The position numbers and the translations under genes are program-made. This document shows, piece after piece, positions 47,060 to 60,815 of a stretch of 64,000 bases of DNA. The notes under the pieces were generated by a model, which saw only the letters and a list, made by a program, of their open reading frames with translations, did no database searches and had not been told where the DNA came from. Numbering within the stretch: the first letter of the stretch is position 1; each line of letters begins with the position of its first letter. The stretch is taken from IMG/VR virus record IMGVR_UViG_3300045988_147517, positions 1-64,000 of that record; one strand, 5' to 3'. This DNA comes from a virus.

Positions 47060-47170
47060 GATAATAAGACAAAGGCTCCCCTTATTTAGGCACATTTTCA
47101 CGCTTCTCGCTCAAGCACTACAATAAGTACAGTATCAACGAGCTATCCCCGTCCTAACAGCGGTTCTTGC
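47060..47170 (-). ncRNA. Orphan TnpB-type omegaRNA-like scaffold, copy A (with candidate 3' guide)
   Basis: Minus-strand sequence is aaccgctgttaggacggggatagctcgttgatac...ttgagcgagaagcg-tgaaaatgtgCCTAAat.... It is homologous to the scaffold 3' of tnpB. No ORF is present. Confidence 0.5.
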
Positions 47171-47300
47171 TAACGATTTGTCAATCTTTGATTAACTCCT
47201 TTTCTCTCTGGGAATCAAATTCAAAATCCTCATTCGATTCTGGTATTTCATAAGGGTCATGGTCATAGCACCACATACAACCATCACATTCCTTTGTTCC

Positions 47301-47329
47301 ATTATAACATAATAGCGCCAATATGTCAA
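47301..47329 (-). promoter_or_regulatory. Consensus sigma70-type promoter with TTGGCGCT motif in the spacer
   Basis: TTGACA-tattggcgctattatgt-TATAAT on the minus strand, ~130 nt upstream of scaffold A. Confidence 0.65.
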
Positions 47330-47616
47330 CCTTCTTTCGGTTTATCTTCAATTATATTCTTTACTTCCTCCACAAATTCTTTATTGCGTTCCGTGCTTTT
47401 AATCCTACAATGCCGAATTTGTAGCAGTGTTATAAATGCTACAATCCCCAAGATTACTGCCATAAGTCTGGCTTGTACAATTGTAACTCCTAGTCGTCCA
47501 AGCAAATGATAAAAATTAAAAAGATTGTCTGTCGCAAATCCGAAAACAACCATTATACTAAAAACAACAAAAATCGCTTCAAAAAAGCACCATAAAATAT
47601 TTTTAATTTTGTCCAT
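47326..47616 (-). CDS. Small membrane protein
   Basis: Three hydrophobic segments. Confidence 0.5.
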   Translation of the reverse strand: MDKIKNILWCFFEAIFVVFSIMVVFGFATDNLFNFYHLLGRLGVTIVQARLMAVILGIVAFITLLQIRHCRIKSTERNKEFVEEVKNIIEDKPKEG

Positions 47617-47632
47617 ACTGCCTCCATGCTCG

Positions 47633-48382
47633 TCAATTTACTTCTAAAATTCTATCATATAGCACATGAAATTCGCTGATATAATCTCCTTGCTCAATCA
47701 TAAGCCCCATAGGTATAACTTTATTATTTCCTTCTAATTTATGAAGGCATAAATCATCTTCTATATGGTAATGACCAGCGAACCATTTATCAAATTTAAC
47801 CGCGTTTAAAATTTCATCACTCAAAAAATTTGTAAACACATTGGGTTCAAACCACCTATCTCTCAAAAGTCCAACATAGGTAGGTATATCATGTGTAATA
47901 ATATAATCTACCTCATTATTATTTCTTTGCAAATTATTTATCGCATTTAAACATTCTTTATTATTCGGAACTTCCTCTGGCCACCAATCTAATCCGGGCG
48001 TCCTTAATTCTTTATCATGAGATGGCGCACCCCCTAGTGCCAAAAACTTTTTATCTTCAATAATAAAAATTTCTCCACGCATCAGGTGGTATACGCTGTC
48101 ATTAATTTTATGTGCTTTTCCGCCAAATAAATTAACTGTTTCGAATTCGTTTAATAAGTGGTGATTCTCATGATTTCCATCAATAAATAAAGTTGTGAAT
48201 GGTTTATTGTCGAACCATTTCTGCCAATACTTATCTGTATTGCTATTGTCCCACACCACTCCAAAATCGCCACAGACAATTAAGTAATCCCGCTTAGTGA
48301 GTTGGCGCTGTTCAGGCCATGCTTTCGTAGTGAGTTTATGAATATCTATAGGGCAATGTACATCACCTGTCACAAAAATCAT
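47633..48382 (-). CDS. Calcineurin-like metallophosphoesterase
   Basis: Motifs GDVHC, GDFG and GNHENH, followed by later His residues. Confidence 0.7.
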   Translation of the reverse strand: MIFVTGDVHCPIDIHKLTTKAWPEQRQLTKRDYLIVCGDFGVVWDNSNTDKYWQKWFDNKPFTTLFIDGNHENHHLLNEFETVNLFGGKAHKINDSVYHLMRGEIFIIEDKKFLALGGAPSHDKELRTPGLDWWPEEVPNNKECLNAINNLQRNNNEVDYIITHDIPTYVGLLRDRWFEPNVFTNFLSDEILNAVKFDKWFAGHYHIEDDLCLHKLEGNNKVIPMGLMIEQGDYISEFHVLYDRILEVN

Positions 48383-48678
48383 TATTTCTCAACCTTTCTG
48401 CAATGCACATTTAAATTATTTGAATCCATATTGTAAATAATTCGTTCAATCACATAATAATTTCCATTCTTATAAACTTCTTCCCCAATTTGCGGGGTGT
48501 GAAAAGTTTTCACATGTTCTGGCTTACTATCGTTGGGAATAAGATAATAATATTGTTCTTCCATCATTTCTCCTATATCCTTATTATGCGTAGTTGTAAC
48601 CTTCCAATAAACAAAACACATTCCAACAACCATTACAACAACTATAATGGCGGTAATTATATTATATCTTATCTTCAT
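48382..48678 (-). CDS. Small membrane-anchored protein
   Basis: N-terminal TM helix. Confidence 0.45.
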   Translation of the reverse strand: MKIRYNIITAIIVVVMVVGMCFVYWKVTTTHNKDIGEMMEEQYYYLIPNDSKPEHVKTFHTPQIGEEVYKNGNYYVIERIIYNMDSNNLNVHCRKVEK

Positions 48679-49091
48679 ATTTCCTTTTTCCTAAATAAAT
48701 TATTAAAGTGCTCCAGCGTATATATCGTGGCGCTATCCTTTTTAGGATAATCCATTACAATTATATGCGGGATTCCGTCTTTATCTTTTACGCCCTTAAT
48801 AATTTCATACTCATTCCCATATATATCAACATACACCGAATCGGTAGATTTAAACTCCTTATTTAATTCCACACGCCTAACAACTAGCCCTATAAGAAAC
48901 CCAATGATGGTGACACCCATCCAAATACTAGGCATAGCATTATTACCTAAGCCTAGCACTTTCATATACAAATCAAGTGTAAACATTCCATCATAGATAA
49001 ACACGCATATGACTAATGTTAAGACCGCTACCCCAACCCCACAAAACCCATAACGCAACCATGTTAAAATTGATTTTATTTTATCATTCAT
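48675..49091 (-). CDS. Membrane protein
   Basis: Two TM helices. ATGA overlap with the downstream gene. Confidence 0.5.
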   Translation of the reverse strand: MNDKIKSILTWLRYGFCGVGVAVLTLVICVFIYDGMFTLDLYMKVLGLGNNAMPSIWMGVTIIGFLIGLVVRRVELNKEFKSTDSVYVDIYGNEYEIIKGVKDKDGIPHIIVMDYPKKDSATIYTLEHFNNLFRKKEI

Positions 49092-49121
49092 AAAAGTATC
49101 CTCTCATCCAAAAGTAGTTGG

Positions 49122-49676
49122 TTACATGATGTGGCCGTATCTTTGCAAAAGTCTTAAACCGTCAACCATTTCGCTTAAAGACTCGTCAAAATTATCAGAA
49201 GTTTCATCCTTACTTTCTTCTTCTTGTTCTTCCTCTTCGTCATATCCTATCATATCAACTATAAGCGCAAATGAAGTGAATATTTCTTCCTCAGAAACTT
49301 CTTCATTGTTTTCAATCTTTTCTTCAATTTTATTAAGATATTCTAAAGCATGTAAAAGTTTAAATGCTTCTGATATTTCGGAATTTTCATCCTCCAATTC
49401 AATGGCTGTCCTTTTTGTAGAGCCACAAGCTTTAGGTTCTGCATCGATGCACCATTCAGAGCTTACTTTTAATAATTCGCCGTCTTCCGCCTCTACAATA
49501 TAAGACTTTTCATTTTCACCCAATAATTCATCATGCCAAAATTCTCCTACTATCGGCATCATATCCATTTTATCATATGGCATTTCGATGCCCATTTCAT
49601 TGGTTAAAGCTTTCCCGGCTTCATAGACATTCTTACCTACAACCTCAATCATTTTTTCTTTACTAAATACTAGCAT
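49122..49676 (-). CDS. Hypothetical acidic protein
   Basis: SD aaggag. Confidence 0.5.
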   Translation of the reverse strand: MLVFSKEKMIEVVGKNVYEAGKALTNEMGIEMPYDKMDMMPIVGEFWHDELLGENEKSYIVEAEDGELLKVSSEWCIDAEPKACGSTKRTAIELEDENSEISEAFKLLHALEYLNKIEEKIENNEEVSEEEIFTSFALIVDMIGYDEEEEQEEESKDETSDNFDESLSEMVDGLRLLQRYGHIM

Positions 49677-49719
49677 TTTGTTCTCCTTTTTTATATAAAT
49701 TTTAAAAATTAAATATAAT

Positions 49720-49851
49720 TCATGTTAACTTTAAACAATGGTAAAAGTCAATCAAATTTAAATACATTCTAATTTAAACACAGATTCAACGCTTCTCGCT
49801 CAATAACCTTACGGTTAAGTATCAACGAGCTAACCCCGGTTTAACCTCGGT
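49720..49851 (-). ncRNA. Stand-alone omegaRNA-like gene, copy B (scaffold + CRISPR-repeat-like segment + candidate guide)
   Basis: Minus-strand sequence is aaccgaggttaaaccggggttagctcgttgatacTTAACCgtaaGGTTAttgagcgagaagcg-ttgaat-ctgtGTTTAAattagaatgtatttaaat-ttgattgac.... A consensus promoter ends 6 nt upstream. Confidence 0.6.
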
Positions 49852-49857
49852 TCTTTG

Positions 49858-49886
49858 ATTATAACATATAATTTTTGTTATGTCAA
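49858..49886 (-). promoter_or_regulatory. Consensus sigma70-type promoter driving omegaRNA copy B
   Basis: TTGACA-taacaaaaattatatgt-TATAAT on the minus strand. The predicted start is ~49851, at the first conserved scaffold nucleotides. Confidence 0.7.
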
Positions 49887-49895
49887 ATTTATTTT

Positions 49896-50237
49896 TTAAT
49901 CATCCCATTCAATATCTGGGTATGGATTTCTATTAATTTCGTCTATATAGAATTCCCCGTAAAACCAATCTTTTAAATTGATATATATTTCATTTATTTC
50001 TTGCAATGTTTTTTCGATAAATTCATTTATTTCTTCGTCATCATATTTATTATCAGCAAAATACTTTTCACTATTAAATATTTTACAAAATGGATAAGAA
50101 TGCACTTCAACTTTTACATGAATGCACCAACCACAATAGCGATAATTTATAATTATATCAAATGGCAAGTCGTATAAATCGTATAATTCTTTACATTCTT
50201 TTGTTTTATTTTCATAATAATATTTTTTAGTAATCAT
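49896..50237 (-). CDS. Hypothetical protein
   Basis: It starts 27 nt after the last array repeat. Confidence 0.5.
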   Translation of the reverse strand: MITKKYYYENKTKECKELYDLYDLPFDIIINYRYCGWCIHVKVEVHSYPFCKIFNSEKYFADNKYDDEEINEFIEKTLQEINEIYINLKDWFYGEFYIDEINRNPYPDIEWDD

Positions 50238-50264
50238 TTTACCCCTACTTTATTTAAACATTCC

Positions 50265-50492
50265 ATTCAAATACATCTCGTGTTAAACACAAACTTTGGC
50301 ACTTGATGTCTATTTTTTCTGGAAATTAAAATTTAAATGCATCTCATGTTAAACACAAACCCCGGCATCTATTACCGGAGACAAACAAATAGTAAGATTT
50401 AAATACATCTCATGTTAAACACAAACCCTAATCGTCTATATCTGCGCCTTTTAGAATATCTAATTTAAATACATCTCATGTTAAACACAAAC
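50265..50492 (-). CRISPR. CRISPR-like mini-array: 4 x 30-bp repeats, 3 x 36-bp spacers, adjacent to tnpB
   Basis: Repeats lie at 50463-50492, 50397-50426, 50331-50360 (1 mismatch) and 50265-50294 (2 mismatches). Coding-strand consensus is GTTTGTGTTTAACATGAGATGTATTTAAAT. The period is exactly 66 bp and the spacers are unrelated to each other. Confidence 0.75.
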
Positions 50493-50602
50493 TATAGTAT
50501 TTATCTCATTCTCATTACGCTAACATTTGATGCTTCTCACTCGATAGTCTAATGACTAAGCATAAATGAGCTATCCCCGGTTTAACCTCGGTTGGTGGTA
50601 AG
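50493..50602 (-). ncRNA. TnpB omegaRNA scaffold, copy C (cis copy) plus degenerate repeat-like linker
   Basis: It starts right after the tnpB stop: cttaccaccaaccgaggttaaaccggggatagctcatttatgcTTAGTCattaGACTAtcgagtgagaagca, then tcaaa-tgttagcgtaatgagaatgagataaatac-tatag leading into repeat 1. Confidence 0.65.
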
Positions 50603-51751
50603 TTAATTTACCAGCCGCTTTCCTTCTTTTAGAATATTTTTAGCGGCATTTATATCCCTATCCTCTTTGTAGCCACAAACCGGGCATACAAAGGTTTTTT
50701 CGGATAAAATATTCTCTTCTATTACATGTTCACACTTATGGCACGTCTTTGAGCTTGGGAAAAATGTATTTACTTGTACATATTTATGGCCATATTCTTC
50801 TGCTTTATACGCTAACATTTGGCAGAAATTAAAGTACCCTATATCGGTAATAGCAGAATTAAAATTTTTCTTTGTTCTATTTAAAAACCCTTCTTTCTCT
50901 TTATTCTGTTTCATCATTTCTTGCAATTTAAGTTTCTCAACCGCAATAATTTTATTATCTCTCGCAATCTTCCTACTCAAATTATGTGCGAAATATGCTC
51001 TTTGTCTAGCAATTTTCTGATGAACTTTCGCTACTTTAATACGTTGTTTTTCGTAATTTTTACTACCACGTTGACAATGACTTAATTTGCGTTGCTCTCT
51101 GGCTAAACGTTCTTTGCTTTTCTTATAGTAGTTAGGATAATCTGGAATACTTCCTTTATTATCCACAAAGTAATCTCGTGATGAAAAATCAAGCCCGATG
51201 GATTGGGATTTCCCTTTCTTCTGTTTCATTTTAAATTCAATGCAGAAGGCAATATAGTATTCCCCTGATGGTGTCCTAGAAAGTGTTGCATCACATATTT
51301 TTGCATCATCTGGAATTGGCCTATCAACAATCATTTTGACGGTTGTTGACAATTTTGGAATTTTAACTCTATTACCTTCAATACGCAACCCATTACCGCC
51401 AACTGTATTTCTCGTTTTAAAGCTATCCCTACATCTACCACGCTTCTTAAATTTAGGAAATCCGGGCTTTTCCCCATTTTTTAATCTTCTAAAAAAGTTT
51501 TTATACGCCTGTTCTAAATCCCGCTGAACAAAATTTAAGGCATGTGCATCCACTTCTTTTAACCAAGTATTATCTGCTTTATATGAAGCGTAGCTCGTCT
51601 TTAATGACTTCCCCGTCTCTTCATAATGCTTTATTTTGTCAGCAAGCATAGCATTCCAAATCCATCTGCAAGCGCCAAATGTTTTATTTAAATATTCTCT
51701 CTGTTCTTTATTTGGGTAGATACGATATTTATAACCTCTAACTACTAACAT
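50603..51751 (-). CDS. tnpB: TnpB-family RNA-guided nuclease (382 aa), no tnpA
   Basis: N-terminus YKYRIYPNKEQREYLNKTFGACRWIWN. RuvC-I SIGLDFS, RuvC-II IIAVEKL. Zinc finger CHKCEH...CPVCGY. RuvC-III EDRDINAAKNI. Confidence 0.85.
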   Translation of the reverse strand: MLVVRGYKYRIYPNKEQREYLNKTFGACRWIWNAMLADKIKHYEETGKSLKTSYASYKADNTWLKEVDAHALNFVQRDLEQAYKNFFRRLKNGEKPGFPKFKKRGRCRDSFKTRNTVGGNGLRIEGNRVKIPKLSTTVKMIVDRPIPDDAKICDATLSRTPSGEYYIAFCIEFKMKQKKGKSQSIGLDFSSRDYFVDNKGSIPDYPNYYKKSKERLAREQRKLSHCQRGSKNYEKQRIKVAKVHQKIARQRAYFAHNLSRKIARDNKIIAVEKLKLQEMMKQNKEKEGFLNRTKKNFNSAITDIGYFNFCQMLAYKAEEYGHKYVQVNTFFPSSKTCHKCEHVIEENILSEKTFVCPVCGYKEDRDINAAKNILKEGKRLVN

Positions 51752-51779
51752 TTTCTTACCTCATCAACTTTATGTCTAT

Positions 51780-51808
51780 ATTATATCATGTTGGCGCTTA
51801 CTTGTCAA
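51780..51808 (-). promoter_or_regulatory. Consensus sigma70-type promoter driving tnpB (AAGCGCCAA motif in the spacer)
   Basis: TTGACA-agtaagcgccaacatga-TATAAT on the minus strand, ~28 nt before the tnpB ATG (SD gaggt). Confidence 0.7.
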
Positions 51809-52236
51809 CCATTTTTAAAAAAATTTTTTATTTTTTCTTTCTTCTCATTGCACTGTTTACTTTCATAGCCGTTACAACTATACCTATTATCACAATCTTT
51901 GCACATATTTATAATAGTATACACCGCTTCTTCTTTTGTAGTCGGGAAATCTATTTCAAAATCTTCTGGTGGCGTGTAGATACTATCGTCCTCACTCTCA
52001 TATTTTTCTTTTATTCTTTGCTTCTCTTCCTTCGGCAAACTCAATACTTCATCCCGCACTCTCTTAAAAATTCTTTCATTATCCACTGATAGATTCTGGC
52101 GCGATTTTTCTTCATTTTTCTGAGCAATCATCTCTTCTAACAACTTATCTCGCTCTTCCTCTGGAAGGGATTCTATAATCGGAACCAACCAATTTTCGAC
52201 AAACTCTTTCATAGTCATTACACAATCTTTACTCAT
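51805..52236 (-). CDS. Hypothetical protein
   Basis: SD aaggag, directly after the promoter at 52263..52291. Confidence 0.55.
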   Translation of the reverse strand: MSKDCVMTMKEFVENWLVPIIESLPEEERDKLLEEMIAQKNEEKSRQNLSVDNERIFKRVRDEVLSLPKEEKQRIKEKYESEDDSIYTPPEDFEIDFPTTKEEAVYTIINMCKDCDNRYSCNGYESKQCNEKKEKIKNFFKNG

Positions 52237-52262
52237 TAACTCTCACTCCTTACTTTACATAC

Positions 52263-52291
52263 ATTATAATACATTGTTTGCATGTTGTCAA
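52263..52291 (-). promoter_or_regulatory. Consensus sigma70-type promoter
   Basis: TTGACA-acatgcaaacaatgtat-TATAAT on the minus strand. Confidence 0.7.
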
Positions 52292-52362
52292 CAGTTTTTA
52301 TAAAAAATGTCTAAATATTTATAAAATCATTAAAAGGGCATTTTTATTGACAAAATGGCAGT

Positions 52363-52391
52363 AAAAAACCCTAGTAATTACTAGGGTTTTT
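52363..52391. terminator. Bidirectional rho-independent terminator
   Basis: Perfect palindrome CCCTAGTAATTACTAGGG flanked by A6 and T5. Confidence 0.7.
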
Positions 52392-52502
52392 ATTTTGACA
52401 TTTTAGTCATATAAGAAAAAGCCTATCGTCATGCTCATATGAACGTGATATTCTTTCAATTTTATTTTTATACATTATTAACTTATAATTATACATTATA
52501 TT

Positions 52503-52694
52503 TCAATCAATATCATTGCACCAATTTAAATCCATTTTATATTTAATGCCATCGTTCCCGACACACATCCAAACACCATCCGCTCTACAATAAACTCTGT
52601 TTCCATCGCAGGCTTCTACCCACTCTTCTTCAGCGGTGCCATCATAAGCGCCACCAATATCTTCTAAAAATTTTTCCTTACTGAAAACCATCAT
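52503..52694 (-). CDS. Hypothetical protein
   Basis: Operon ORF, followed by the terminator. Confidence 0.5.
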   Translation of the reverse strand: MMVFSKEKFLEDIGGAYDGTAEEEWVEACDGNRVYCRADGVWMCVGNDGIKYKMDLNWCNDID

Positions 52695-52786
52695 AATTAA
52701 TTAACCTCGCCTCTCGTCTAACTCTTTTATTGCCCAACTTCTTTATTTTCTTCTTCATTTTATGGTTGACATCAAACACCATCTGC

Positions 52787-53041: not shown

Positions 53042-53065
53042 AGTTATATTTTTAAAAGCATAATT

Positions 53066-54757: not shown

Positions 54758-55692
54758 TTTAAAGCCGAACCTATGTTTGGGTAACTTTGAGAACTCATTA
54801 AAATATTAATTAATTCCGAAATATCCATTCCATATTCACACATTACTTCAATAGTATCTTTAATAAACTCAAGATTTCTCAAATCATCATGCGTATAATA
54901 AGTAATTAAATTTAAGAGTCTTCCTTTCTCATCATAAACACTTTCTTCTAACAATGATTTGATTTTATTAAAATAAAATACTAAAAGAAAATCTCTTCCC
55001 ATATCACACAATTCTTCTTTATATTCATCTTTGCATTTCATAAATGATGGAAAGTTTTCTATATCTTGAATAATATGTTCAGCCCAATTTATATCCATAG
55101 TATACAAAGGAATATATTCTTGCAATACTATTTTTGATGCCACAATTTTCCAATTTTCATCTTTAATACATTTTTCATAATATTTTTTAGAAACATAAGC
55201 TTTTACTTTGAATAATTTTGATTCTCTTATGCTATATGCATCGACAGTTTCCATTGGCGAATTGGAAAAGTGAAACCCTTGCAGACATAAAATTGGAAAA
55301 TCCACGCTGTATTCTTTTCCAATTTCATATTTTAATCCTTTTGAAACCATATTAAATGGAACGCGTTTATATCCTTCTACCCAAATTTTCTCCTCTTCGT
55401 CATAGAGTTCCTTCATTGTATTATAAGCAACCCCATCTTTGTTTTGAATATCAAATTCACCTACTTTCAAAAGCGAAAGTCCACCACGAATTTCATAATA
55501 AAACAACCCATCATTGAAATCATAAATACTATTACGCAGTGGGCTACTATCTAATTCCTTTTTCAAATTTTCAATTTTCCTTTCTCTTTCTGACATCGGC
55601 TCTTCCTTATTCATTTCATCATTAATATCTTCAATTTCTTCATTTGATGATGCCACTTTACCATTCGTATTACCTTTATTAAACCAAAACAT
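54730..55692 (-). CDS. Hypothetical protein (320 aa)
   Basis: SD aaggagg. Confidence 0.55.
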   Translation of the reverse strand: MFWFNKGNTNGKVASSNEEIEDINDEMNKEEPMSERERKIENLKKELDSSPLRNSIYDFNDGLFYYEIRGGLSLLKVGEFDIQNKDGVAYNTMKELYDEEEKIWVEGYKRVPFNMVSKGLKYEIGKEYSVDFPILCLQGFHFSNSPMETVDAYSIRESKLFKVKAYVSKKYYEKCIKDENWKIVASKIVLQEYIPLYTMDINWAEHIIQDIENFPSFMKCKDEYKEELCDMGRDFLLVFYFNKIKSLLEESVYDEKGRLLNLITYYTHDDLRNLEFIKDTIEVMCEYGMDISELINILMSSQSYPNIGSALKWKEILQLI

Positions 55693-55704
55693 TATATTTC
55701 CTCC

Positions 55705-55884
55705 TTATACCCAAATGCAAACTACAACAGAAATAAAAAAACAAATCATACATACTATTAAAGCACCCATAAAAAGTCCGGCTATTTTTCTGCTATTCCT
55801 ACTAGGAAAATCACTAAAAATACATACTAAAATTGCAAATAGTAGCCCCAATATTATAAATGTTACTACAAATTTTTGCGCCAT
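55705..55884 (-). CDS. Small hydrophobic membrane protein (59 aa, below the ORF-track cutoff)
   Basis: SD agaggt before the ATG. Translation is MAQKFVVTFIILGLLFAILVCIF.... It is preferred over the antisense 78-aa plus-strand track ORF at 55715..55951. Confidence 0.5.
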   Translation of the reverse strand: MAQKFVVTFIILGLLFAILVCIFSDFPSRNSRKIAGLFMGALIVCMICFFISVVVCIWV

Positions 55885-56029
55885 ATTATACCTCTTTCTT
55901 TTTAAAACCCCTAGTAGTCAATCGGCCAAAATTAGTTTTATTATTATTTAAATTTAAACTGTAAAATAAACACCTACTAGGGGCATAGCGGCCTTCGAGA
56001 GATTGTAATCGCTCCCTCACCATATCTAT

Positions 56030-56058
56030 ATTATACAACAAAAGCGCCAATATGTCAA
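56030..56058 (-). promoter_or_regulatory. Consensus sigma70-type promoter with TTGGCGCT motif in the spacer
   Basis: TTGACA-tattggcgcttttgttg-TATAAT on the minus strand. It is followed by a ~135-nt structured leader. Confidence 0.65.
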
Positions 56059-56083
56059 TAGATTTCTGGCGCTTTTTAAAATT

Positions 56084-56347
56084 TTATTCGTGAAACAGAA
56101 AATAATAGGATTTTTCAATGGGGTATGCGTTAATAATTTTAATCTTTGGATTTGTCAATAATTCTAAATCTTCATTATAAGCATTTGCATAATATACAAT
56201 TTTATAAGCTAAAGCCTTCTCTGTACTAATAATATACTCAGGTACCTCCATATCATCATTTTTAATTACCACACAAAACCCGCAATATAATCCTTCCGTA
56301 TCATCTTTTGTTTCAAACATCATTTTTAATAATTCAGTCTTTTTCAT
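56084..56347 (-). CDS. Hypothetical protein
   Basis: Operon ORF. Confidence 0.5.
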   Translation of the reverse strand: MKKTELLKMMFETKDDTEGLYCGFCVVIKNDDMEVPEYIISTEKALAYKIVYYANAYNEDLELLTNPKIKIINAYPIEKSYYFLFHE

Positions 56348-56928
56348 CGTTTTAAAATTTTTACTCCTACTAATTCTTCAATTAAATCTCGATAGCGCGA
56401 TTCGGCTTCGAGCAATCGTGCATCACCATAATTAATCACGTCTTGCAACCCTTCGTTTCTTTTTCGGAGCGCCACAATCAAATCCTCGTATTCGCGAATT
56501 TTTGATTTATTTTCATCCATTTCATCACGAAACTTCTTTACTTCACTTTCATTTTCGTTTTTTAATTCAGTGATTTCATTATCTAAAGCATTAAGCTTAT
56601 CTATTCTAGTTCTAATAAACAAACTATTTAACTCTGCATCTTGCTCCGTTTCTTCTTTTACTGCTTCAATTTTATAAAGTGTAATGGCAATTTCTTCTTT
56701 GCGGTCTGTTAATAGAACCCATGGATTTGAAAAGAAAATATGGACAAAATTTCCATCTTCTTTAGTTTTTCCCTCATAAATTTTAGTGCCATATTCATAC
56801 ATTTTGTTAACACGTTCACTAATTTTATCTTCATTTTGGGCAATGTAGGTATTAATAGATAGTTTCTCATCCCTTCCCATGATACGTTCTGCGTATCTTT
56901 CTTGGCAATGTTTGCTAACTTTTAACAT
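56344..56928 (-). CDS. Hypothetical coiled-coil protein
   Basis: Operon ORF with an ATGA overlap. Confidence 0.5.
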   Translation of the reverse strand: MLKVSKHCQERYAERIMGRDEKLSINTYIAQNEDKISERVNKMYEYGTKIYEGKTKEDGNFVHIFFSNPWVLLTDRKEEIAITLYKIEAVKEETEQDAELNSLFIRTRIDKLNALDNEITELKNENESEVKKFRDEMDENKSKIREYEDLIVALRKRNEGLQDVINYGDARLLEAESRYRDLIEELVGVKILKR

Positions 56929-57185
56929 GAACTACTCCTATCTTCGTCTTTATTCATAGCAGTGACTTTTGGCTGAGTGTTCGGGTCGATTCTAAAAGGA
57001 TTCAGATGTCTAGGCGCTGTTACAAATGGATAGTTTTCTCTAAAATTTTTACAACTTATATTTATTTCAAATGAATCGCTATGTTGAATGCCGTCTACTT
57101 TATCTTGTAGCGCGTATGCTTCTTCAATATTCTTACATACGTCATGATGATTACATAAGTCGCATTTTTCTCTCATATTACTCAT
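56922..57185 (-). CDS. Hypothetical Cys-containing protein
   Basis: SD aggagg. Confidence 0.5.
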   Translation of the reverse strand: MSNMREKCDLCNHHDVCKNIEEAYALQDKVDGIQHSDSFEINISCKNFRENYPFVTAPRHLNPFRIDPNTQPKVTAMNKDEDRSSSC

Positions 57186-57210
57186 TTAGTTTTCCTCCTT
57201 TTTTATTTTG

Positions 57211-57597
57211 TTAATTTTTTAATAATTGGTCAACAATTTTTCTACATTCATTTTGAACGTACTCAAGAGAGCATACTTGACCTTCATATCCAATATCTAA
57301 AATAAGCCTTTTAGGATAATACATTTTTGCCAATTCAATATCATTCCCATCCTCAAAATGTACGCAATCAAACCCGAACCACCATAAATCGGATTTGATA
57401 GGATGCGCACTATCTTTACCACCATCCGAATAGGTGAGTCCACCGTGACATTCTATCTTTAAATCATCATAGAACTTTCCATAATACTGACTTTCTGATG
57501 TTACCCCAACATAACCACACCGATATCCTCCCGGTGTAAAGGTAACAACACAGCGTAGACCTTTATAGATAAAATCACTTTCTATCTTTAACTGCAT
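57211..57597 (-). CDS. Hypothetical protein
   Basis: Operon ORF. Confidence 0.5.
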   Translation of the reverse strand: MQLKIESDFIYKGLRCVVTFTPGGYRCGYVGVTSESQYYGKFYDDLKIECHGGLTYSDGGKDSAHPIKSDLWWFGFDCVHFEDGNDIELAKMYYPKRLILDIGYEGQVCSLEYVQNECRKIVDQLLKN

Positions 57598-57776
57598 TCT
57601 TCAACCTCCAACTCTTCTTCAAAAACGTCTTCTCTATATTCTATAATTTCCATCATTCGTTCTTCAAGCCACTCTAATTCTTCTACGTTTTTACATTTAT
57701 CAAATAAGTCATCAACAAATAATTCAAAACCAAAACTATCTAAACCTAATCTTCCACTCTCATCTCTTCCCAGCAT
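57588..57776 (-). CDS. Hypothetical acidic protein
   Basis: Operon ORF. Confidence 0.4.
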   Translation of the reverse strand: MLGRDESGRLGLDSFGFELFVDDLFDKCKNVEELEWLEERMMEIIEYREDVFEEELEVEECS

Positions 57777-57952
57777 CTTTCAACCTCCTGATAAAGTTCT
57801 CCTAAATTTTCTGGTACCTCTTCTGCATTATTTAAAGACTCCTCATACCATTCCCAATTATCCACGCCGCCATATTTTAAAGATAATAACTCAGCTTCTC
57901 TCTCAAGCAATAACCGCAATTCTTTTTCTACAATAATATATTCTTTACTCAT
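57746..57952 (-). CDS. Hypothetical protein
   Basis: Operon ORF. Confidence 0.45.
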   Translation of the reverse strand: MSKEYIIVEKELRLLLEREAELLSLKYGGVDNWEWYEESLNNAEEVPENLGELYQEVERCWEEMRVED

Positions 57953-58195
57953 TTAAACCTCCCTAAAATATTTTTGCATTGCTTCTTCTGGTATTTCTAA
58001 CCAGTCCCCCGGGTCACCGTTTTGCTCAAGGTGTACGTAATTATCAGGTCGTTTCTCATGCGTTTCCACCCAGATTGTGCCCAACTTGACGGGAGGAATT
58101 TCGCTATCACTAAACACAAGTCCTTTTATGCATTCATATTTTTCATTCTTCTTCATTTCACTACCGCACAAACCTATGTATGTATAGCTCTTCAT
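57953..58195 (-). CDS. Hypothetical protein
   Basis: Operon ORF. Confidence 0.45.
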   Translation of the reverse strand: MKSYTYIGLCGSEMKKNEKYECIKGLVFSDSEIPPVKLGTIWVETHEKRPDNYVHLEQNGDPGDWLEIPEEAMQKYFREV

Positions 58196-58388
58196 CTAAT
58201 ATCTCCTGTACTTCATCTTTCACCTGTTGAGCTTCAAGCGTTGAATTTCCATTAAACACTTCTTCAAACACCATTGAGAGTAGGCAATCTAGTTCGTTAA
58301 GCTCTTTGCAAGAATTAACCAAGTCAGACACCACAACTTTTAATTTTTTTCCATTATAAAACATCTCATCATTTACATACTTTAACAT
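58161..58388 (-). CDS. Hypothetical protein
   Basis: The start was moved to the ATG at 58388, after aggagg (ATGTTAA overlap with the upstream stop). Confidence 0.5.
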   Translation of the reverse strand: MLKYVNDEMFYNGKKLKVVVSDLVNSCKELNELDCLLSMVFEEVFNGNSTLEAQQVKDEVQEILDEELYIHRFVR

Positions 58389-58753
58389 TCTTTTACCTCC
58401 TGGTTCCAACAATCATAACAAGTATAGCCCAGTCTCATACATTCCACAGATTTATCATCTTCGCCATATACATCTACAATACATGCAGTAGGATAAAGCC
58501 CACTCCCATCATCTTCTAATCTAGCATTCGGGAACTTCTCTAAAAATACATTCATGTAGGTCTTTGGTGGATGTTCTCTGTCCCACTTTTCAACAACAGA
58601 AACAGCCTCTCGAGGATAATCCTGTTCAAAACTTGCACAATAGATATGTCTTTTATTATTATGTGATTCAAACGGGCACTCAGAACAAGATGACGCTTTG
58701 CAACATTGTGTCATTCTTCTCTTTATTTTTAAATATTCAACTGCGTTCATCAT
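58382..58753 (-). CDS. Hypothetical Cys-rich protein
   Basis: Operon ORF. Confidence 0.5.
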   Translation of the reverse strand: MMNAVEYLKIKRRMTQCCKASSCSECPFESHNNKRHIYCASFEQDYPREAVSVVEKWDREHPPKTYMNVFLEKFPNARLEDDGSGLYPTACIVDVYGEDDKSVECMRLGYTCYDCWNQEVKEC

Positions 58754-59148
58754 TCAGTTACCCCAATCAAATTAAGAAGGTCGTCAATGTCAATTTCGAC
58801 GTTATTATAGTCAGTTGGATGACGATGTGATGATTTCATAGTAATATTTTCCGCGTCTAACGTTTCATCTAAAATATCAATCAAAGAATTTTCTTCATTC
58901 TCAAACAATTTATCCTTTAAAAGACCAAATAATTCTTGGTATGGCATTTCTTTTACATCATTTTCTGCTTCAATATATCCAGAGTAGCTTCCAATTTTCA
59001 CCACTACCAATACAGCATCTGATAATGGGTGTAAATACCACTGCTCCCAGTAATAACCATCATCGTATCCAAAAAACAAGGCTTTTTTATTTTGTTTATG
59101 TACCTTTAAAAGCGCATCTCTTAATTCATCTGGTGTGTCAATGTTCAC
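58750..59148 (-). CDS. Hypothetical protein
   Basis: Operon ORF. Confidence 0.5.
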   Translation of the reverse strand: MNIDTPDELRDALLKVHKQNKKALFFGYDDGYYWEQWYLHPLSDAVLVVVKIGSYSGYIEAENDVKEMPYQELFGLLKDKLFENEENSLIDILDETLDAENITMKSSHRHPTDYNNVEIDIDDLLNLIGVTE

Positions 59149-59555
59149 TCCCTTACCCCCTTCTTAATTTCCTCGAATTTCGCCAACATTTCGGGCACTG
59201 CCGCCACCGCCTCCTCTTCGGTCGGGAAACAGTTACCCATGTTGAGCATGGCAAGAGAGGCTTCTTCGTCTTTATAGAAGTGGCACCATGTCACGCGTCC
59301 ATTAAGAGAGACGGTATAATATTTACCATCATCTTTCGGCTTCCAAGGGCGTTTCTGAATTGTGTATTCTCCGGTTAATAAATACCATAGTTGACTATAC
59401 GCCATGTCATCATCGTCATAATCAATAATTGAGTCATTCGTAAATCTATAAGGACTATAAGCGACAATACTTCCATTTTTATCCATAACATCAAATTTCT
59501 CCCCAATCTCTACGCCTAACATTTTTGCCACTTCTTGCATGTAGTTTTTATTCAT
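59145..59555 (-). CDS. Hypothetical protein (136 aa)
   Basis: Its ATG directly abuts the right end of the mini IscB element. Confidence 0.5.
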   Translation of the reverse strand: MNKNYMQEVAKMLGVEIGEKFDVMDKNGSIVAYSPYRFTNDSIIDYDDDDMAYSQLWYLLTGEYTIQKRPWKPKDDGKYYTVSLNGRVTWCHFYKDEEASLAMLNMGNCFPTEEEAVAAVPEMLAKFEEIKKGVRE

Positions 59556-59749
59556 CTAATCTTTGGCAATGAAACTCCCTACTTCTATAAGTAGGAGAGG
59601 AATTGCCTTCTCCTTTCTTCCTGTAAATAACTCATTCTAGCTTTTAATAATTTTAATTTTTTACAACTTATACCCGTTAGTCTAGTCAACAAGGGCTTTT
59701 CAAGCCCCCACTTCAACAAGACCTATCTTGTAAGTAGTGGGTTATTGAC
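59556..59749 (-). mobile_element. Internally deleted (MITE-like) derivative of the IscB element
   Basis: 59556..59674 matches 27490..27603 (right end including the hairpin and the iscB 3' codons). 59677..59749 matches 28986..29059 (left end and the omegaRNA 5' part). The iscB body is absent. Confidence 0.75.
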
Positions 59750-59871
59750 TTTAAATCTCCTTTACCTTTCTTATTTTAACTGGTTTTCTTTTCTTGGGTC
59801 TACGCCTTTCTTTCAAATCTTTTTCAGCTAGGCGCTCTTCTTCTTGTTCCATAATATAATTAAAGTATTCT

Positions 59872-60405
59872 TCACTCGTTATCGGTAGATTCTTTTTCTT
59901 GTAACTCATCGTTCTTCCTAAAAATAATTAGCTTTACATGTTCGCTATCATCAAAAACTTCATGTAATATCTTACTTACAATTTTCCAATCTCCTCCACC
60001 ACATCCGCAACCTAGCTTATATGGTACTCCAATTGTCCAAATATCATCTTTTTTTGAAAAAGTAAGGGCCTCACAATGTTCTCTTAACAATATTAGTGCC
60101 TCTTTAAGCGCCCTATAATCTGTCAACCTTTCACCATTTGGGGCATGATGAAACTGGGCGAATAAATTAGCAACCAAGTCTTTTCTGCCCCCATACCGTT
60201 CCACTTCGACTATCTGAACAACGCCCATCATTGATTCAGATAGACCATATTCTTTGCAGAATTTATTATATTGCTTCAATAAATCTTTGTAAATATACCT
60301 TAAATCTCTCGAAAGTCCGGCGTGCATTTTCCCTTGACAATTTACCTGATGGGCGATAATATCAACTTTAGATTTAATTAAATCTCCATCTTTCATTTCT
60401 ACCAT
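59872..60405 (-). CDS. Macro domain (ADP-ribose binding/hydrolase) protein
   Basis: The N-terminal pattern GDLIKSKVDIIAHQVNCQGKMHAGLS and the size fit stand-alone macro domains. Confidence 0.5.
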   Translation of the reverse strand: MVEMKDGDLIKSKVDIIAHQVNCQGKMHAGLSRDLRYIYKDLLKQYNKFCKEYGLSESMMGVVQIVEVERYGGRKDLVANLFAQFHHAPNGERLTDYRALKEALILLREHCEALTFSKKDDIWTIGVPYKLGCGCGGGDWKIVSKILHEVFDDSEHVKLIIFRKNDELQEKESTDNE

Positions 60406-60406
60406 T

Positions 60407-60625
60407 TTAATCCCTCATAAGCCTTTTAATATCTCTTACATTCAAACTCAATACTATATTCACATTATCAGGCGGATTCATATTATTTACAAACCGCTTC
60501 AAACACCCAGTCGAACAAAAATAATGGCCGTGCGACCGCACCCCGTTATTGGAGATTTCTTGAATCGTCAACTGAATCATATTACAGGTACAACCCGCTT
60601 CTCCACTACAAAACTCACACTTCAT
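60407..60625 (-). CDS. Small Cys-rich protein
   Basis: The ATG at 60625, 8 nt after aaggag, is preferred over the GTG at 60634. Translation begins MKCEFCSGEAGCTC.... Confidence 0.5.
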   Translation of the reverse strand: MKCEFCSGEAGCTCNMIQLTIQEISNNGVRSHGHYFCSTGCLKRFVNNMNPPDNVNIVLSLNVRDIKRLMRD

Positions 60626-60637
60626 AATATTCACTCC

Positions 60638-60730
60638 TTAGTTAATTAAAATACCGCCAACATATTCAATATATTCGTATGCCGCCTTTGGCGATTCCAC
60701 AACATCATTTTTGCCAATCGTTTCCCAATT
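60638..60730 (-). pseudogene. Displaced, diverged duplicate of the last 30 codons of gene 60826..61248
   Basis: It translates in frame to NWETIGKNDVVESPKAAYEYIEYVGGILIN*. The functional end reads SWDAIAKDDVIESPEKAYEYIETVGGILIN*. It has no start codon and lies immediately 3' of omegaRNA copy D. Confidence 0.65.
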
Positions 60731-60815
60731 TAGGTGTACTAATGTACTTCTCACTCGATAGCATAGCTAAGCATAAATGAGCTAACCCCGTCCTAACAGC
60801 GGTTATTGTTGGTGC
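60705..60815 (-). ncRNA. Orphan TnpB-type omegaRNA-like scaffold, copy D (candidate guide = displaced gene fragment)
   Basis: Minus-strand sequence is caccaacaataaccgctgttaggacggggttagctcatttatgcTTAGCtatGCTAtcgagtgagaagta-cattagtacaCCTAAat-tgggaaacgattgg.... Confidence 0.5.

What the first reader, a model, noticed from the sequence alone, without database searches (positions are those of the whole stretch)
47060..60815. Four-copy structured RNA family (TnpB omegaRNA scaffolds) with compensatory changes supporting a hairpin-loop to 3'-strand pseudoknot, in a 2x2 module mosaic
The four copies are A (47084-47165), B (49756-49851), C (50531-50600, in cis to tnpB) and D (60728-60804). All share the same architecture on the minus strand.
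- 5' hairpin CCG-N9-CGG. The loop is cuGUUAGGa in A and D, and agGUUAAAC in B and C.
- Outer core stem. It covaries as CTCG/CGAG in A and B versus CTCA/TGAG in C and D.
- Inner hairpin. Pairing is kept while the sequence changes: TAACC/GGTTA in B, TAGTC/GACTA in C, TAGC/GCTA in D. The A hairpin is weak.
- A 3' motif ~8 nt after GAGAAG, which tracks the 5' loop type rather than the core type. A and D have CCUAA, pairing with UUAGG. B has GUUUAA, pairing with UUAAAC. C lacks the motif in its fused linker, but the CRISPR repeats supply GUUUAAC.

The variants occur in all four combinations: A is loop-x/core-1, B is loop-y/core-1, C is loop-y/core-2 and D is loop-x/core-2. The loop-to-3' pairing is therefore preserved across recombinant backgrounds.

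From memory, a pseudoknot adjacent to the guide is a known feature of TnpB/Cas12 guide RNAs. One TnpB with four scaffolds, each followed by a different downstream sequence, suggests trans-acting multi-guide use.
Basis: partly seen in the sequence, partly recalled or inferred. Interest (0 to 1): 0.85.

Follow-up and report, generated by a model that had tools for sequence, protein, structure and literature searches.

The report
Phage TnpB guide-RNA genes, fused and split
A ~119-kb phage carries one small TnpB nuclease gene and four copies of its guide-RNA scaffold, two as one-piece guides, one as a tracrRNA feeding a mini CRISPR array and one as a tracr-repeat fusion, so the transposon-to-CRISPR transition known as TranC is visible within a single genome.

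Summary
A covariance model finds exactly four copies, at the stated coordinates and all on the minus strand. Ten distinct family members (four from the window, six from related phage contigs) support a 5' hairpin, a long bulged hairpin, a short "stem 4", and a 5-bp pseudoknot between the 5' hairpin loop and the bases just before the guide. This is the guide-PK-stem layout solved for ISDra2 TnpB omegaRNA.

- **Copy C** is a tracrRNA-like scaffold. Its anti-repeat pairs with a four-repeat CRISPR-like array 3' of an intact 382-aa TnpB.
- **Copies A and D** are one-piece omegaRNA-like genes whose stem 4 is closed by a tetraloop.
- **Copy B** has a perfect promoter of its own and is a tracr-repeat fusion.
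- **The repeat's pseudoknot strand** is its invariant 3' end (UUUAAAU), not the internal GUUUAAC.

This is a TranC-like system (Jin et al. 2025), and phage-borne examples are already known.

The new parts are the scattered stand-alone guide genes and the D locus. There, two phage haplotypes carry guides copied from neighbouring gene sequence. One guide matches the other haplotype's allele 20/20. This suggests RNA-guided "intronless homing". Array spacer targets and the TAM remain unknown.

The parts
51780..51808 (-). Promoter of the tnpB / scaffold C / array unit (TTGACA-17-TATAAT, TG-extended)
   Evidence: 12/12 consensus match. The same promoter is present in relative L011, where tnpB and scaffold 1 are missing.
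50603..51751 (-). tnpB, 382 aa, predicted active RNA-guided nuclease
   Evidence: Pfam HTH_OrfB_IS605, OrfB_IS605 and Cas12f1-like_TNB. Full-length match to ISDra2 TnpB 8h1j/8bf8, E about 6.5e-58. RuvC D188/E272/D366 and the two CxxC pairs are invariant among the four close homologues.
50533..50593 (-). Scaffold C core: 5' hairpin with loop GUUAAA, plus the long bulged hairpin. This is the tracrRNA-like body.
   Evidence: CM hit of 87.4 bits. Pair counts.
50515..50532 (-). Anti-repeat of C (CAUCAAAUGUUAGCGUAA). Together with the preceding G it forms stem 4 and an extended duplex with the repeat.
   Evidence: RNAduplex gives -12.9 kcal/mol against -9.0 +/- 2.1 for shuffled repeats. The same 4-5 bp / 2x2 loop / 9-14 bp layout appears in the three orthologous loci.
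50493..50514 (-). Leader (..GAGATAAATACTATA), conserved in all related arrays
   Evidence: Alignment of the loci.
50265..50492 (-). CRISPR-like array: four 30-nt repeats (GTTTGTGTTTAACATGAGATGTATTTAAAT, the last one degenerate) and three 36-nt spacers, period 66
   Evidence: Repeat families D2 and D4, spacing 66/66/66. Repeat and spacer list.
49858..49886 (-). Promoter dedicated to scaffold B
   Evidence: 12/12 consensus with TG extension. The -10 box ends 5 nt before AACCG.
49792..49852 (-). Scaffold B core
   Evidence: CM hit of 88.2 bits.
49756..49791 (-). B tail: the 5' strand of stem 4 (GCGUU), joined directly to a degenerate full repeat that ends AAUGU-A-UUUAAAU. This makes a natural tracr-repeat fusion.
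   Evidence: Comparison with the intact tracr+array at the same locus in L007, L011 and L051-55. Coordinates.
49737..49755 (-). B guide / shortened spacer (TTGATTGACTTTTACCATT)
   Evidence: Lies between the degenerate repeat and the terminal repeat. No other match in the window or the fetched loci.
49708..49736 (-). Terminal degenerate repeat of the B array
   Evidence: Homologous to the last repeat of the L011 second array.
47084..47165 (-). Scaffold A, one-piece omegaRNA-like: loop GUUAGG, stem 4 GCGU-GAAA-AUGU, pseudoknot strand CCUAA
   Evidence: CM hit of 80.7 bits. Pair counts. Conserved with the same flanks in L011 and L012.
47064..47083 (-). A guide (AAGGGGAGCCTTTGTCTTAT), the adjacent DNA. 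It overlaps the ribosome-binding region of a small downstream ORF.
   Evidence: Position directly after the CCUAAAU motif. No empty site was found in IMG/VR.
60728..60804 (-). Scaffold D, one-piece: loop GUUAGG, stem 4 GUAC-AUUA-GUAC, pseudoknot strand CCUAA
   Evidence: CM hit of 81.3 bits..
60638..60727 (-). D guide (first ~20 nt, TGGGAAACGATTGGCAAAAA) plus the rest of a displaced old 3' end of the upstream gene. It encodes WETIGKND.., the population's majority allele type.
   Evidence: 91-nt imperfect duplication, 76% identical. Haplotype alignment.
60826..60916 (-). Functional 3' end of the 140-aa gene in the window allele (WDAIAKDD..). It has 5 mismatches to the D guide in the first 20 nt.
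   Evidence: Divergence among the cluster's proteins is concentrated after W112, the codon where the guide starts.
60567..60586 (-). Site inside the downstream 75-aa gene that is matched 20/20 by the guide of the remnant scaffold E in the other phage haplotype
   Evidence: blastn-short hit of L044_g2. Alignment.

Best explanation
The four elements are genes for the guide-RNA scaffold of the phage's own TnpB nuclease. The locus as a whole is a TnpB-CRISPR hybrid of the TranC kind.

**Shown by sequence and comparison**
- Every copy has a 5' hairpin whose 6-nt loop carries one pseudoknot strand, followed by a long bulged hairpin.
- A short stem 4 follows, then one unpaired base, then the second pseudoknot strand (CCUAA or UUUAA), then two bases (AU or AC), then the guide.
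- In A and D, stem 4 is closed by a tetraloop. Each is therefore a one-piece omegaRNA-like gene.
- In C, stem 4 is open. Its 5' strand runs on into an anti-repeat. The 3' strand, the pseudoknot strand and the guide come from the array: each repeat ends ..GAUGU-A-UUUAAAU, followed by a spacer. C thus acts like a tracrRNA for crRNAs.
- B is the same tracr joined directly to a repeat by a deletion. It is a natural single-guide RNA with its own consensus promoter.

**Inferred**
- TnpB is made from the 51808 promoter, on one transcript with C and the array.
- It loads any of these RNAs and cuts double-stranded DNA that matches the guide next to a still unknown TAM.

**Further inference on role, about 40% confidence**
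- The stand-alone guides serve competition between co-infecting sibling phages, as RNA-guided homing or marker exclusion.
- The guide copies a nearby gene segment in a rival's allele. The carrier is safe because its own functional copy is recoded, and because the remnant that templates the guide is preceded by the scaffold rather than by a TAM.
For: **Copy number and family**
- Exactly four copies, scoring 80.7-88.2 bits.
- Further copies occur in related phage contigs: L007 (two), L008 (one complete stand-alone copy plus a copy truncated by the contig end), L009, L011, L014 and L044.

**Structure**
- The long hairpin is 98% paired, with 9 pairs changed on both sides.
- RNAalifold recovers the same structure independently.
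- The pseudoknot and stem 4 are 100% paired, with double changes.
- The stand-alone fused copy in L008 has loop UUAAA with ..GUGU-A-UUUAAAC-guide. The loop and 3' motif therefore stay matched in fused forms of both loop types.
- L014 combines B's hairpin with the 5' and 3' modules of A and D.
- The layout equals the ISDra2 omegaRNA. There the pseudoknot pairs -5..-3 with -103..-105 in the stem 1 region, and stem 4 carries a tetraloop that joins the crRNA-like and tracrRNA-like halves (PMC10097598).

**Protein**
- The TnpB is intact.

**Array and anti-repeat**
- The array is shown.
- Anti-repeat:repeat duplexes have the same layout in four loci.

**Transcription**
- Consensus promoters are placed so that transcription starts at the scaffold's 5' end.

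**D locus**
- The upstream gene's 3' end is duplicated around D.
- Protein divergence starts at the codon where the guide starts.
- Haplotype M carries a guide identical to the window's allele of the next gene but two mismatches from its own allele.

**Precedent**
- TranC and a phage-borne TranC are described in bioRxiv 10.64898/2026.03.27.714800.
Against: - There is no expression, binding or cleavage data.
- Single-sequence folding is not better than for shuffled sequence.
- The pseudoknot covariation rests on two states, and the alignment for it was assembled by hand.
- The family is small, with 10 distinct sequences from one phage group. Scans of metagenome and genome collections gave only chance hits.
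- No protospacer was found for any array spacer. Searches covered the window and fetched loci, INPHARED, PLSDB and exact 20-24-mers in IMG/VR.
- No TAM could be derived.
- The window's D guide has 3 mismatches, at positions 9, 12 and 15, to the only rival allele seen.
- No empty site was found for A.
- Arrays are identical in every sampled strain of one haplotype, so there is no sign of spacer acquisition.
- Some relatives lack tnpB or carry a truncated copy yet keep arrays and scaffolds. Parts of the system may therefore be decaying.
Confidence: 0.72

Rival explanations
1. The stand-alone copies A, B and D are DNA-level relics. They would be right ends left behind by former IS605-type tnpB insertions, or PATE-like non-autonomous elements, with no RNA function today.
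For: - Relatives show the system in flux. tnpB is absent in L011 and truncated in L028, and the TnpB cluster includes several truncated products.
- A and D lack a promoter of their own.
- Hairpins at IS605 ends also act as single-stranded DNA, so covariation alone does not prove an RNA.
- PATEs that encode omegaRNAs are known (PMC10055086).
Against: - There is no room for a left end. The scaffolds start 13-21 nt after the upstream stop codon.
- The ORFs next to tnpB have no Pfam match, so no TnpA sits beside it.
- B, L007_2 and L014 have a consensus -10 box placed to start transcription at the first scaffold base.
- Stem 4 and the pseudoknot, which matter only for the RNA-protein complex, keep pairing through double changes in the stand-alone copies.
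- Invariant G.U pairs fit RNA.
- A is conserved, with its flanks, in both haplotypes.
Confidence: 0.1
2. The hairpin loop of C pairs with the internal GUUUAAC of the CRISPR repeat, and in B with the GUUUAA 12 nt after GAGAAG.
For: - In the window, GUUUAAC is complementary to the loop GUUAAAC over 6-7 nt.
- B's first motif lies at the same distance from GAGAAG (12 nt) as CCUAAAU does in A, D and L014.
Against: - The internal GUUUAAC is specific to the window's repeat. L009 and L028 repeats have GUUUGAAUAUAAC, and L007 repeats have GAUUAAC at that place.
- UUUAAAU/C at the 3' end is invariant in all full repeats and degenerate only in terminal ones.
- In the window, the internal stretch lies inside the predicted anti-repeat duplex.
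- In B, the 12 nt before the first motif cannot form stem 4. GCGUU...AAUGU-A-UUUAAAU can, in the same register as the crRNAs and the L008 fused copy.
- C16 of the loop pairs with G9 within the hairpin.
- In ISDra2, the pseudoknot strand lies directly before the guide.
Confidence: 0.12
3. The scaffolds and array are not for nuclease attack on rivals. They would act on the phage or host by binding: gene regulation in the manner of TldR or Cas12m, or as decoys that titrate TnpB.
For: - A's guide overlaps the ribosome-binding region of the next small ORF.
- No external target was found for any spacer.
- Phage-encoded TnpB-derived repressors exist (papers listed).
Against: - The RuvC triad and the zinc finger are intact and invariant, unlike in TldR.
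- The guides of A and D match only their own flank, where the scaffold replaces any TAM.
- The D-locus pattern of allele-specific guides is not explained by regulation.
Confidence: 0.08

Closest known systems
ISDra2 TnpB-omegaRNA (IS200/IS605 OMEGA system; PDB 8h1j, 8bf8)
   Same: - The protein aligns over its full length (E about 6.5e-58) and has the same Pfam domains.
- The RNA has the same order of parts: a 5' stem whose loop region supplies one pseudoknot strand, internal stems, a stem 4 closed by a tetraloop, the second pseudoknot strand a base or two before the guide, and the guide at the 3' end (one search compared).
   Different: - The scaffold is only about 81 nt, against 116 nt in ISDra2.
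- It does not overlap the ORF.
- The protein lacks the C-terminal ~35 residues of ISDra2 TnpB.
- No TnpA, no left end and no recognisable transposon boundaries were found.
- One of the four scaffolds is split into a tracr and a CRISPR-like array.
TranC, the transposon-CRISPR intermediates (Jin et al., Cell 2025, known here only through citing papers), including LaTranC (PDB 9jfo) and the phage-borne CauTranC9 (bioRxiv 10.64898/2026.03.27.714800)
   Same: - A TnpB-sized effector sits next to a short CRISPR array, with no cas1 or cas2 nearby.
- The tracrRNA derives from the omegaRNA/reRNA by a split at stem 4.
- The system is carried by a phage, as CauTranC9 is.
- The protein lacks the ISDra2 C-terminal domain, as reported for CauTranC9.
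   Different: - LaTranC matches only over the RuvC part (E 7e-18), so this is not that clade.
- The repeats are 30 nt. Published values are 38 nt for clade 9 and 32-36 nt for clades 3 and 11.
- The protein is 382 aa, below the 414-aa average quoted for the smallest clade.
- Clade assignment could not be tested because no TranC sequences were on hand.
- Stand-alone unsplit guide genes scattered over the same genome, and a re-fused tracr-repeat, are not mentioned in the texts I could read.
Cas12f tracrRNA:crRNA
   Same: Repeat:anti-repeat 1 forms the pseudoknot next to the guide, and repeat:anti-repeat 2 forms the stem that corresponds to omegaRNA stem 4 (PMC10097598).
   Different: Cas12f proteins have enlarged REC and WED domains and act as dimers. 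Sequence similarity here is limited to the C-terminal part of the protein (E 1e-8 to 6e-10).
PATE-like non-autonomous IS605 elements that encode omegaRNAs used in trans (Meers et al., PMC10055086)
   Same: These are protein-less guide-RNA genes that must rely on a TnpB encoded elsewhere in the genome.
   Different: PATEs have both transposon ends and are moved by TnpA. Here no left end fits, no TnpA was seen next to the elements, and at least one copy has a dedicated consensus promoter.
Free-standing homing endonucleases of T4-like phages (SegF, SegB; 'intronless homing', reviewed in PMC13565253)
   Same: - They sit between conserved genes.
- They tell self from rival by a few sequence differences in a neighbouring gene.
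- They are expected to cause co-conversion of flanking markers.
- The window phage also carries an IscB with its omegaRNA and a group I intron.
   Different: Recognition here would be by a ~20-nt RNA guide with one shared nuclease, rather than by a protein at each site. No experiment supports this yet.

Membership tests
TnpB-omegaRNA (OMEGA, IS200/IS605 type) | TnpB protein with an HTH, a RuvC domain carrying D-E-D, and a zinc-ribbon (TNB) domain | tested here: met
   Three Pfam domains, E 7e-23 to 3e-19. Full-length match to ISDra2 TnpB. D188, E272, D366 and the two CxxC pairs are invariant.
TnpB-omegaRNA (OMEGA, IS200/IS605 type) | Structured RNA encoded at the 3' end of tnpB on the same strand, with the guide at its 3' end | tested here: met
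   Scaffold C starts 10 nt after the stop codon. A distant omegaRNA homologue lies in the same position after a 35%-identical TnpB in L004.
TnpB-omegaRNA (OMEGA, IS200/IS605 type) | Guide-pseudoknot-stem core | tested here: met
   The pseudoknot (5 bp) and stem 4 (4 bp) are 100% paired in 10 sequences, with double changes. The alignment was extracted by hand. H1 and H2 were recovered independently by RNAalifold.
TnpB-omegaRNA (OMEGA, IS200/IS605 type) | Residence in a transposon with left and right ends, mobilised by TnpA | tested here: not met
   No ORF with a transposase domain lies beside tnpB. A promoter sits directly upstream of tnpB. The tnpB+scaffold indel in L011 is bounded by AAAGTTGAT / AAATGTTAG rather than by IS ends. 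The rest of the window was not screened for TnpA.
TranC / tracrRNA-dependent type V-like system | TnpB-like effector next to an array of direct repeats and unique spacers | tested here: met
   Four 30-nt repeats with period 66 and three 36-nt spacers. Orthologous arrays occur in L007, L009, L011 and L028.
TranC / tracrRNA-dependent type V-like system | tracrRNA with an anti-repeat complementary to the repeat, derived from the omegaRNA by a split at stem 4 | tested here: met
   Duplexes of -9.5 to -16.6 kcal/mol with the same layout in four loci, z from -1.1 to -3.2 against shuffles. Stem 4 of the fused forms aligns with the first 4 bp of the duplex.
TranC / tracrRNA-dependent type V-like system | crRNA-guided cleavage of matching DNA next to a PAM | not testable with these tools
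   No protospacer was found, so not even a PAM could be inferred.
TranC / tracrRNA-dependent type V-like system | Placement in one of the published TranC clades | not testable with these tools
   Jin et al. 2025 and the supplementary sequences of the bioRxiv paper are not held. The only available statement is that the protein is far from LaTranC.
PATE-like non-autonomous IS605 element (for A, B, D) | Both transposon ends flanking a protein-less element | tested here: not met
   By inspection, the scaffolds begin 13-21 nt after the upstream stop codon (A, D) or 5 nt after a promoter (B). At D, the DNA to the left is a second copy of the gene's 3' end.
Homing element (intronless homing) | The nuclease target lies in the rival allele near the element, and the carrier's own allele is resistant | tested here: inconclusive
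   M's remnant guide matches the window allele 20/20 and its own allele 18/20. The window's D guide matches its own functional allele 15/20 and the M allele 17/20. No perfectly matching rival allele for D, no TAM and no empty site were found.

The most novel reading that the evidence does not exclude
One minimal phage TnpB of 382 aa, smaller than the 414-aa average quoted for the smallest TranC clade, serves a distributed set of guide-RNA genes. These include unsplit, split and re-fused forms. The stand-alone guide genes are ~100-bp selfish or weapon modules that carry out RNA-guided intronless homing. Each holds a guide copied from a rival haplotype's allele of a neighbouring gene, so that co-infecting siblings are cut and converted. 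The two haplotypes at 60.5-61 kb would then be in a reciprocal arms race. Such loci would also be a natural route by which flank-derived omegaRNA guides become free 'spacers', which is a step towards CRISPR arrays.
Probability: 0.3. Interest if true: 0.85.

Novelty: new variant of a known kind. Interest (0 to 1): 0.6.

Why it matters
**Already established.** The RNA architecture (a pseudoknot next to the guide) and the existence of TnpB-CRISPR intermediates are known. The core of the finding is therefore a new member of a known kind, not a new principle.

**What is unusual here.**
- One genome holds the classical one-piece guide, the split tracr+array and a re-fused tracr-repeat, apparently all for the same very small nuclease.
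- The same loci in a sister haplotype differ in state. This offers a natural experiment on how omegaRNAs split into tracrRNA and crRNA.
- It also points to a compact (~81-nt scaffold, 382-aa protein) candidate editing system.

**The D locus.** It hints that phages use TnpB guides as allele-specific weapons or homing devices against close relatives. That role has been proposed for OMEGA systems only in general terms. It could be tested directly, because both haplotypes are common in public metagenomes.

Tried and rejected
**Rfam.** No family matches the four copies. The only hits in the window are HEARO, a group I intron and a tRNA.

**Megablast of 47000-52300 against INPHARED.** No match.

**Scaffold pattern scans of metagenome and genome collections.** The 10 hits are all GC-rich chance matches. 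Only IMG/VR gave real copies.

**Spacer targets.** Nothing was found in any of these searches:
- blastn-short against the window and all fetched loci
- concatenated spacers against INPHARED and PLSDB
- exact 20-24-mers of window spacers S1, S2 and S3 in IMG/VR

**Empty site for A.** The only IMG/VR hits are the two known occupied loci.

**Diverged duplicates of the flank near A, B, L014 and the L008 stand-alone copy.** None were found. Only D has one.

**Tandem Repeats Finder.** It does not see the array, as expected with unique spacers.

**Thermodynamic folding of single copies.** It is not distinctive, so I did not use it as evidence.

**TAM from the two candidate target sites.** The flanks are ..AAATATTCT and ..GGTTGTACC. 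Two sites are too few, so no TAM is claimed.

**Rejected idea: the repeat's internal GUUUAAC is the pseudoknot strand.** See the rival explanations.

**Rejected idea: A and D are PATEs.** No left end fits.

Full report
**What is there**

The window is phage DNA, and almost all genes in this part lie on the minus strand. A 6.5-kb stretch around the finding is 99.985% identical to a 119,122-bp ENA metagenome contig. The phage is common: the TnpB cluster member P0135 is recorded on 76 contigs and the 140-aa neighbour gene product P0124 on 119.

The ORF at 50603-51751(-) encodes a 382-aa TnpB.
- It has HTH_OrfB_IS605, OrfB_IS605 and Cas12f1-like_TNB domains.
- It aligns end to end with ISDra2 TnpB (E about 6.5e-58). 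It matches LaTranC only over the RuvC part, at E 7e-18.
- The RuvC residues D188, E272 and D366 and two CxxC pairs are invariant in its close homologues.
- A 12/12 consensus promoter precedes it.

**Check of the observation**

The repeat finder recovers the four copies (family D3). A covariance model built from ten distinct family members finds exactly these four in 64 kb, at 80.7-88.2 bits. Nothing else scores better than E about 0.9.

Additional copies came from related phage contigs:
- L007, with two copies; the second is also found in L011 and L013
- L009 (identical to L010)
- L011 (identical to L012), which holds the homologue of A
- L014
- L044, which holds the homologue of D
- L008, which holds a complete stand-alone copy plus a copy truncated by the contig end

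The same pattern in the metagenome and genome collections hit only unrelated GC-rich DNA. The family is therefore confined to this phage group.

**Structure**

RNAalifold and my own reading give the same fold.
- **H1** is CCG/CGG plus one further pair that is U-A in one loop type and G-C in the other. It encloses a 6-nt loop, GUUAGG or GUUAAA.
- **H2** is a long hairpin built from a 6-bp outer stem, a 2-nt bulge, 2 bp, a small internal loop and a 5-bp inner stem.
- Over the 16 pairs counted (H1 plus H2), 98% of cells are paired. Nine of the 13 H2 pairs change on both sides. With the 3' partner slid by 1-3 columns, only 27-45% are paired.

After GAGNRGRA comes a 4-bp stem 4:
- GCGU/AUGU in A and B
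- GUAC/GUAC in D
- GUAC/GUAU in L014
- ACAU/GUGU in the L008 stand-alone copy
- GCAU or ACAU/AUGU in the split forms

One unpaired base follows, then CCUAA or UUUAA, then AU or AC, then the guide.

The loop bases UUAGG (UUGGG in L044) always occur with CCUAA, and UUAAA always with UUUAA. That is 5 bp paired in 10 of 10 sequences. Two pairs switch G-C to A-U together and one switches to G.U.

That alignment was assembled by hand from the relevant segments, so it leans towards the structure. Two things argue that the match is selected:
- Modules are shuffled. L014 has B's H2 (94% identity) but the 5' module of A (96%) and the 3' module of D (85%).
- Fused forms exist with both loop types. The L008 stand-alone copy has the UUAAA loop.

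Geometrically this is a classical H-type pseudoknot: one base between H1 and the pseudoknot strand, and none after it.

It is also the layout seen in the cryo-EM structure of ISDra2 TnpB-omegaRNA. There, bases -5 to -3 pair with -103 to -105 in the stem 1 region. Stem 4 carries a tetraloop that joins a crRNA-like and a tracrRNA-like half (PMC10097598).

Single-sequence folding energies are not distinctive, with z-scores from -1.9 to +0.2.

**What the four copies are**

*C.* Its core is followed by GCAUC-AA-AUGUUAGCGUAA, a conserved leader, and four 30-nt repeats with three 36-nt spacers.
- The linker is complementary to the repeat. GCAUC pairs with GAUGU, which is stem 4. After a 2x2 loop, AUGUUAGCGUAA pairs with UUGUGUUUAACAU.
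- The same layout is present in L007 (both arrays) and L009, at -9.5 to -16.6 kcal/mol. Shuffled repeats give z from -1.1 to -3.2.
- C is therefore a tracrRNA-like gene.
- Each repeat ends ..GAUGU-A-UUUAAAU directly before the spacer. It supplies the 3' strand of stem 4 and the pseudoknot strand in the same register as the one-piece forms.

The internal GUUUAAC is specific to the window's repeat and lies inside the anti-repeat duplex. The 3'-terminal UUUAAAU/C, by contrast, is invariant in all full repeats and degenerate only in terminal ones.

*A and D.* Stem 4 is closed by GAAA or AUUA. They are one-piece omegaRNA-like genes with an ~81-nt scaffold.

*B.* It has a perfect promoter whose -10 box ends 5 nt before AACCG.
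- L007_2 and L014 have TATAAT at the same distance.
- At the same locus, the other haplotype has a tracr, an anti-repeat, a leader and two full repeats followed by a degenerate terminal repeat.
- The window has GCGUUGAAU joined directly to a degenerate repeat, then a 19-nt spacer and the terminal repeat.
- B is thus a natural tracr-repeat fusion.

**Relation to known systems**

TnpB-sized effectors with arrays and split omegaRNAs are the TranC systems of Jin et al. 2025. I know that paper only through texts that cite it. A Caudoviricetes-borne example, CauTranC9, has been tested. It lacks the ISDra2 C-terminal domain and its spacers target phages.

The present system fits that kind on every feature I could test. 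It is not LaTranC's clade. Its clade cannot be assigned with the data on hand.

Protein-less omegaRNA genes that must use a TnpB in trans are also known, as PATEs. Here there are no transposon ends, and at least one copy has its own promoter.

Other phage TnpBs at 24-42% identity have ordinary single omegaRNAs without arrays. L039 is the exception.

**Dynamics and a possible role**

The module is polymorphic.
- L011 lacks tnpB and scaffold 1. Its promoter is joined to the leader across AAAGTTGAT / AAATGTTAG.
- L028 has tnpB cut after codon 125 and joined into a repeat.
- Arrays are identical in all sampled strains of one haplotype.

The D locus is the most informative.
- In the window, the 140-aa gene ends with an allele encoding WDAIAKDD... 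Then come D and a displaced old 3' end encoding WETIGKND.. (a 91-nt duplication at 76% identity).
- The D guide is the start of that remnant.
- Across the protein cluster, divergence is concentrated after W112, the codon where the guide starts.
- The majority haplotype (L044, L046-L050) keeps WETIGKND in the gene. Its sequence has three synonymous differences from the window's guide, at positions 9, 12 and 15.
- That haplotype has its own D' scaffold, followed by the 3' half of another scaffold (E). The guide of E, TGTAATATGATTCAGTTGAC, equals the window's allele of the next gene (60586-60567) 20/20. It differs from the haplotype's own allele at two positions.

Guides that copy the other haplotype's allele of a neighbouring gene are what RNA-guided intronless homing or marker exclusion would predict. 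The model comes from phage homing endonucleases (reviewed in PMC13565253).

I hold this role at about 40%, for these reasons:
- No TAM is known.
- No perfect target for D is known.
- E is truncated.
- How E acquired a guide that is not its flank is unexplained.
- No array spacer has a known target.

**Verdict**

The architecture and the TnpB-CRISPR hybrid are known kinds. Three things are new:
- unsplit, split and re-fused guide genes coexist for one very small phage TnpB
- stand-alone guide genes are scattered over the genome without transposon ends
- the D locus shows an allele-specific guide pattern

Noticed in passing
window 27490-29059 (-): A second RNA-guided nuclease. An IscB-like ORF of 429 aa (RRXRR E 1e-60, plus HNH) has its HEARO/omegaRNA at 28823-29059 (Rfam, 137 bits). 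It sits directly 3' of a DNA polymerase III alpha-like gene (29056-32502).
   Followed up: partly
window 35739-36020 (-), with ORFs 35981-36325 and 34139-35659: A group I intron (Rfam, 67.6 bits) splits a ribonucleotide reductase gene. Both flanking ORFs hit Ribonuc_red_lgC.
   Followed up: partly
window 47301-47329, 49858-49886, 51780-51808, 52263-52291, 61384-61412 (-): A family of perfect 12/12 sigma-70 promoters. Most have a TG extension and a shared GCGCC-containing spacer. One drives a tRNA (61279-61350), then the 140-aa gene, then scaffold D.
   Followed up: partly
L011 1-620 (IMGVR_UViG_3300045988_118521, 72 kb) compared with window 50493-51808: This related phage lacks tnpB and scaffold 1. 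Its promoter is joined to the array leader across AAAGTTGAT / AAATGTTAG. It still keeps two arrays, the second scaffold with its promoter, and A and D'. No family TnpB was detected on that contig by the pattern scan. Guide genes without a nuclease suggest either decay or reliance on a co-infecting relative.
   Followed up: partly
L028 3001-3760 (IMGVR_UViG_3300045988_149635): A 75%-identical tnpB stops after codon 125 and is joined to the middle of a repeat. An array of six repeats is retained.
   Followed up: no
L044 3010-3100 (same in L046-L050): A half scaffold 'E' lies behind D'. Its 20-nt guide is not the flanking DNA but a copy of a site ~90 bp further downstream, in the other haplotype's allele. 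How it was acquired is unexplained. The D' loop UUGGG could pair with both CCUAA and, through G.U pairs, UUUAA.
   Followed up: partly
L039 4395-4970 (IMGVR_UViG_3300028805_000089): An unrelated phage contig has a 27%-identical TnpB-like gene followed by seven copies of a 32-nt repeat, period 55-68. This is another TnpB-plus-array candidate.
   Followed up: no
window 60922-60942 (-): An 8-bp hairpin (TTTACCCG-ATATG-CGGGTAAA) lies inside the 140-aa gene. It ends 6 nt before the sequence homologous to the D guide. It was flagged only by the terminator scan and its meaning is unknown.
   Followed up: no
L004 7118-7190: The omegaRNA after a 35%-identical phage TnpB shares AACCG..CGGGGATAGC with the family. 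It has a 7-bp stem 4 with an AUUA loop. Its 3' CUACG could pair with the 5' strand of its own first hairpin, so that hairpin and the pseudoknot would compete.
   Followed up: no
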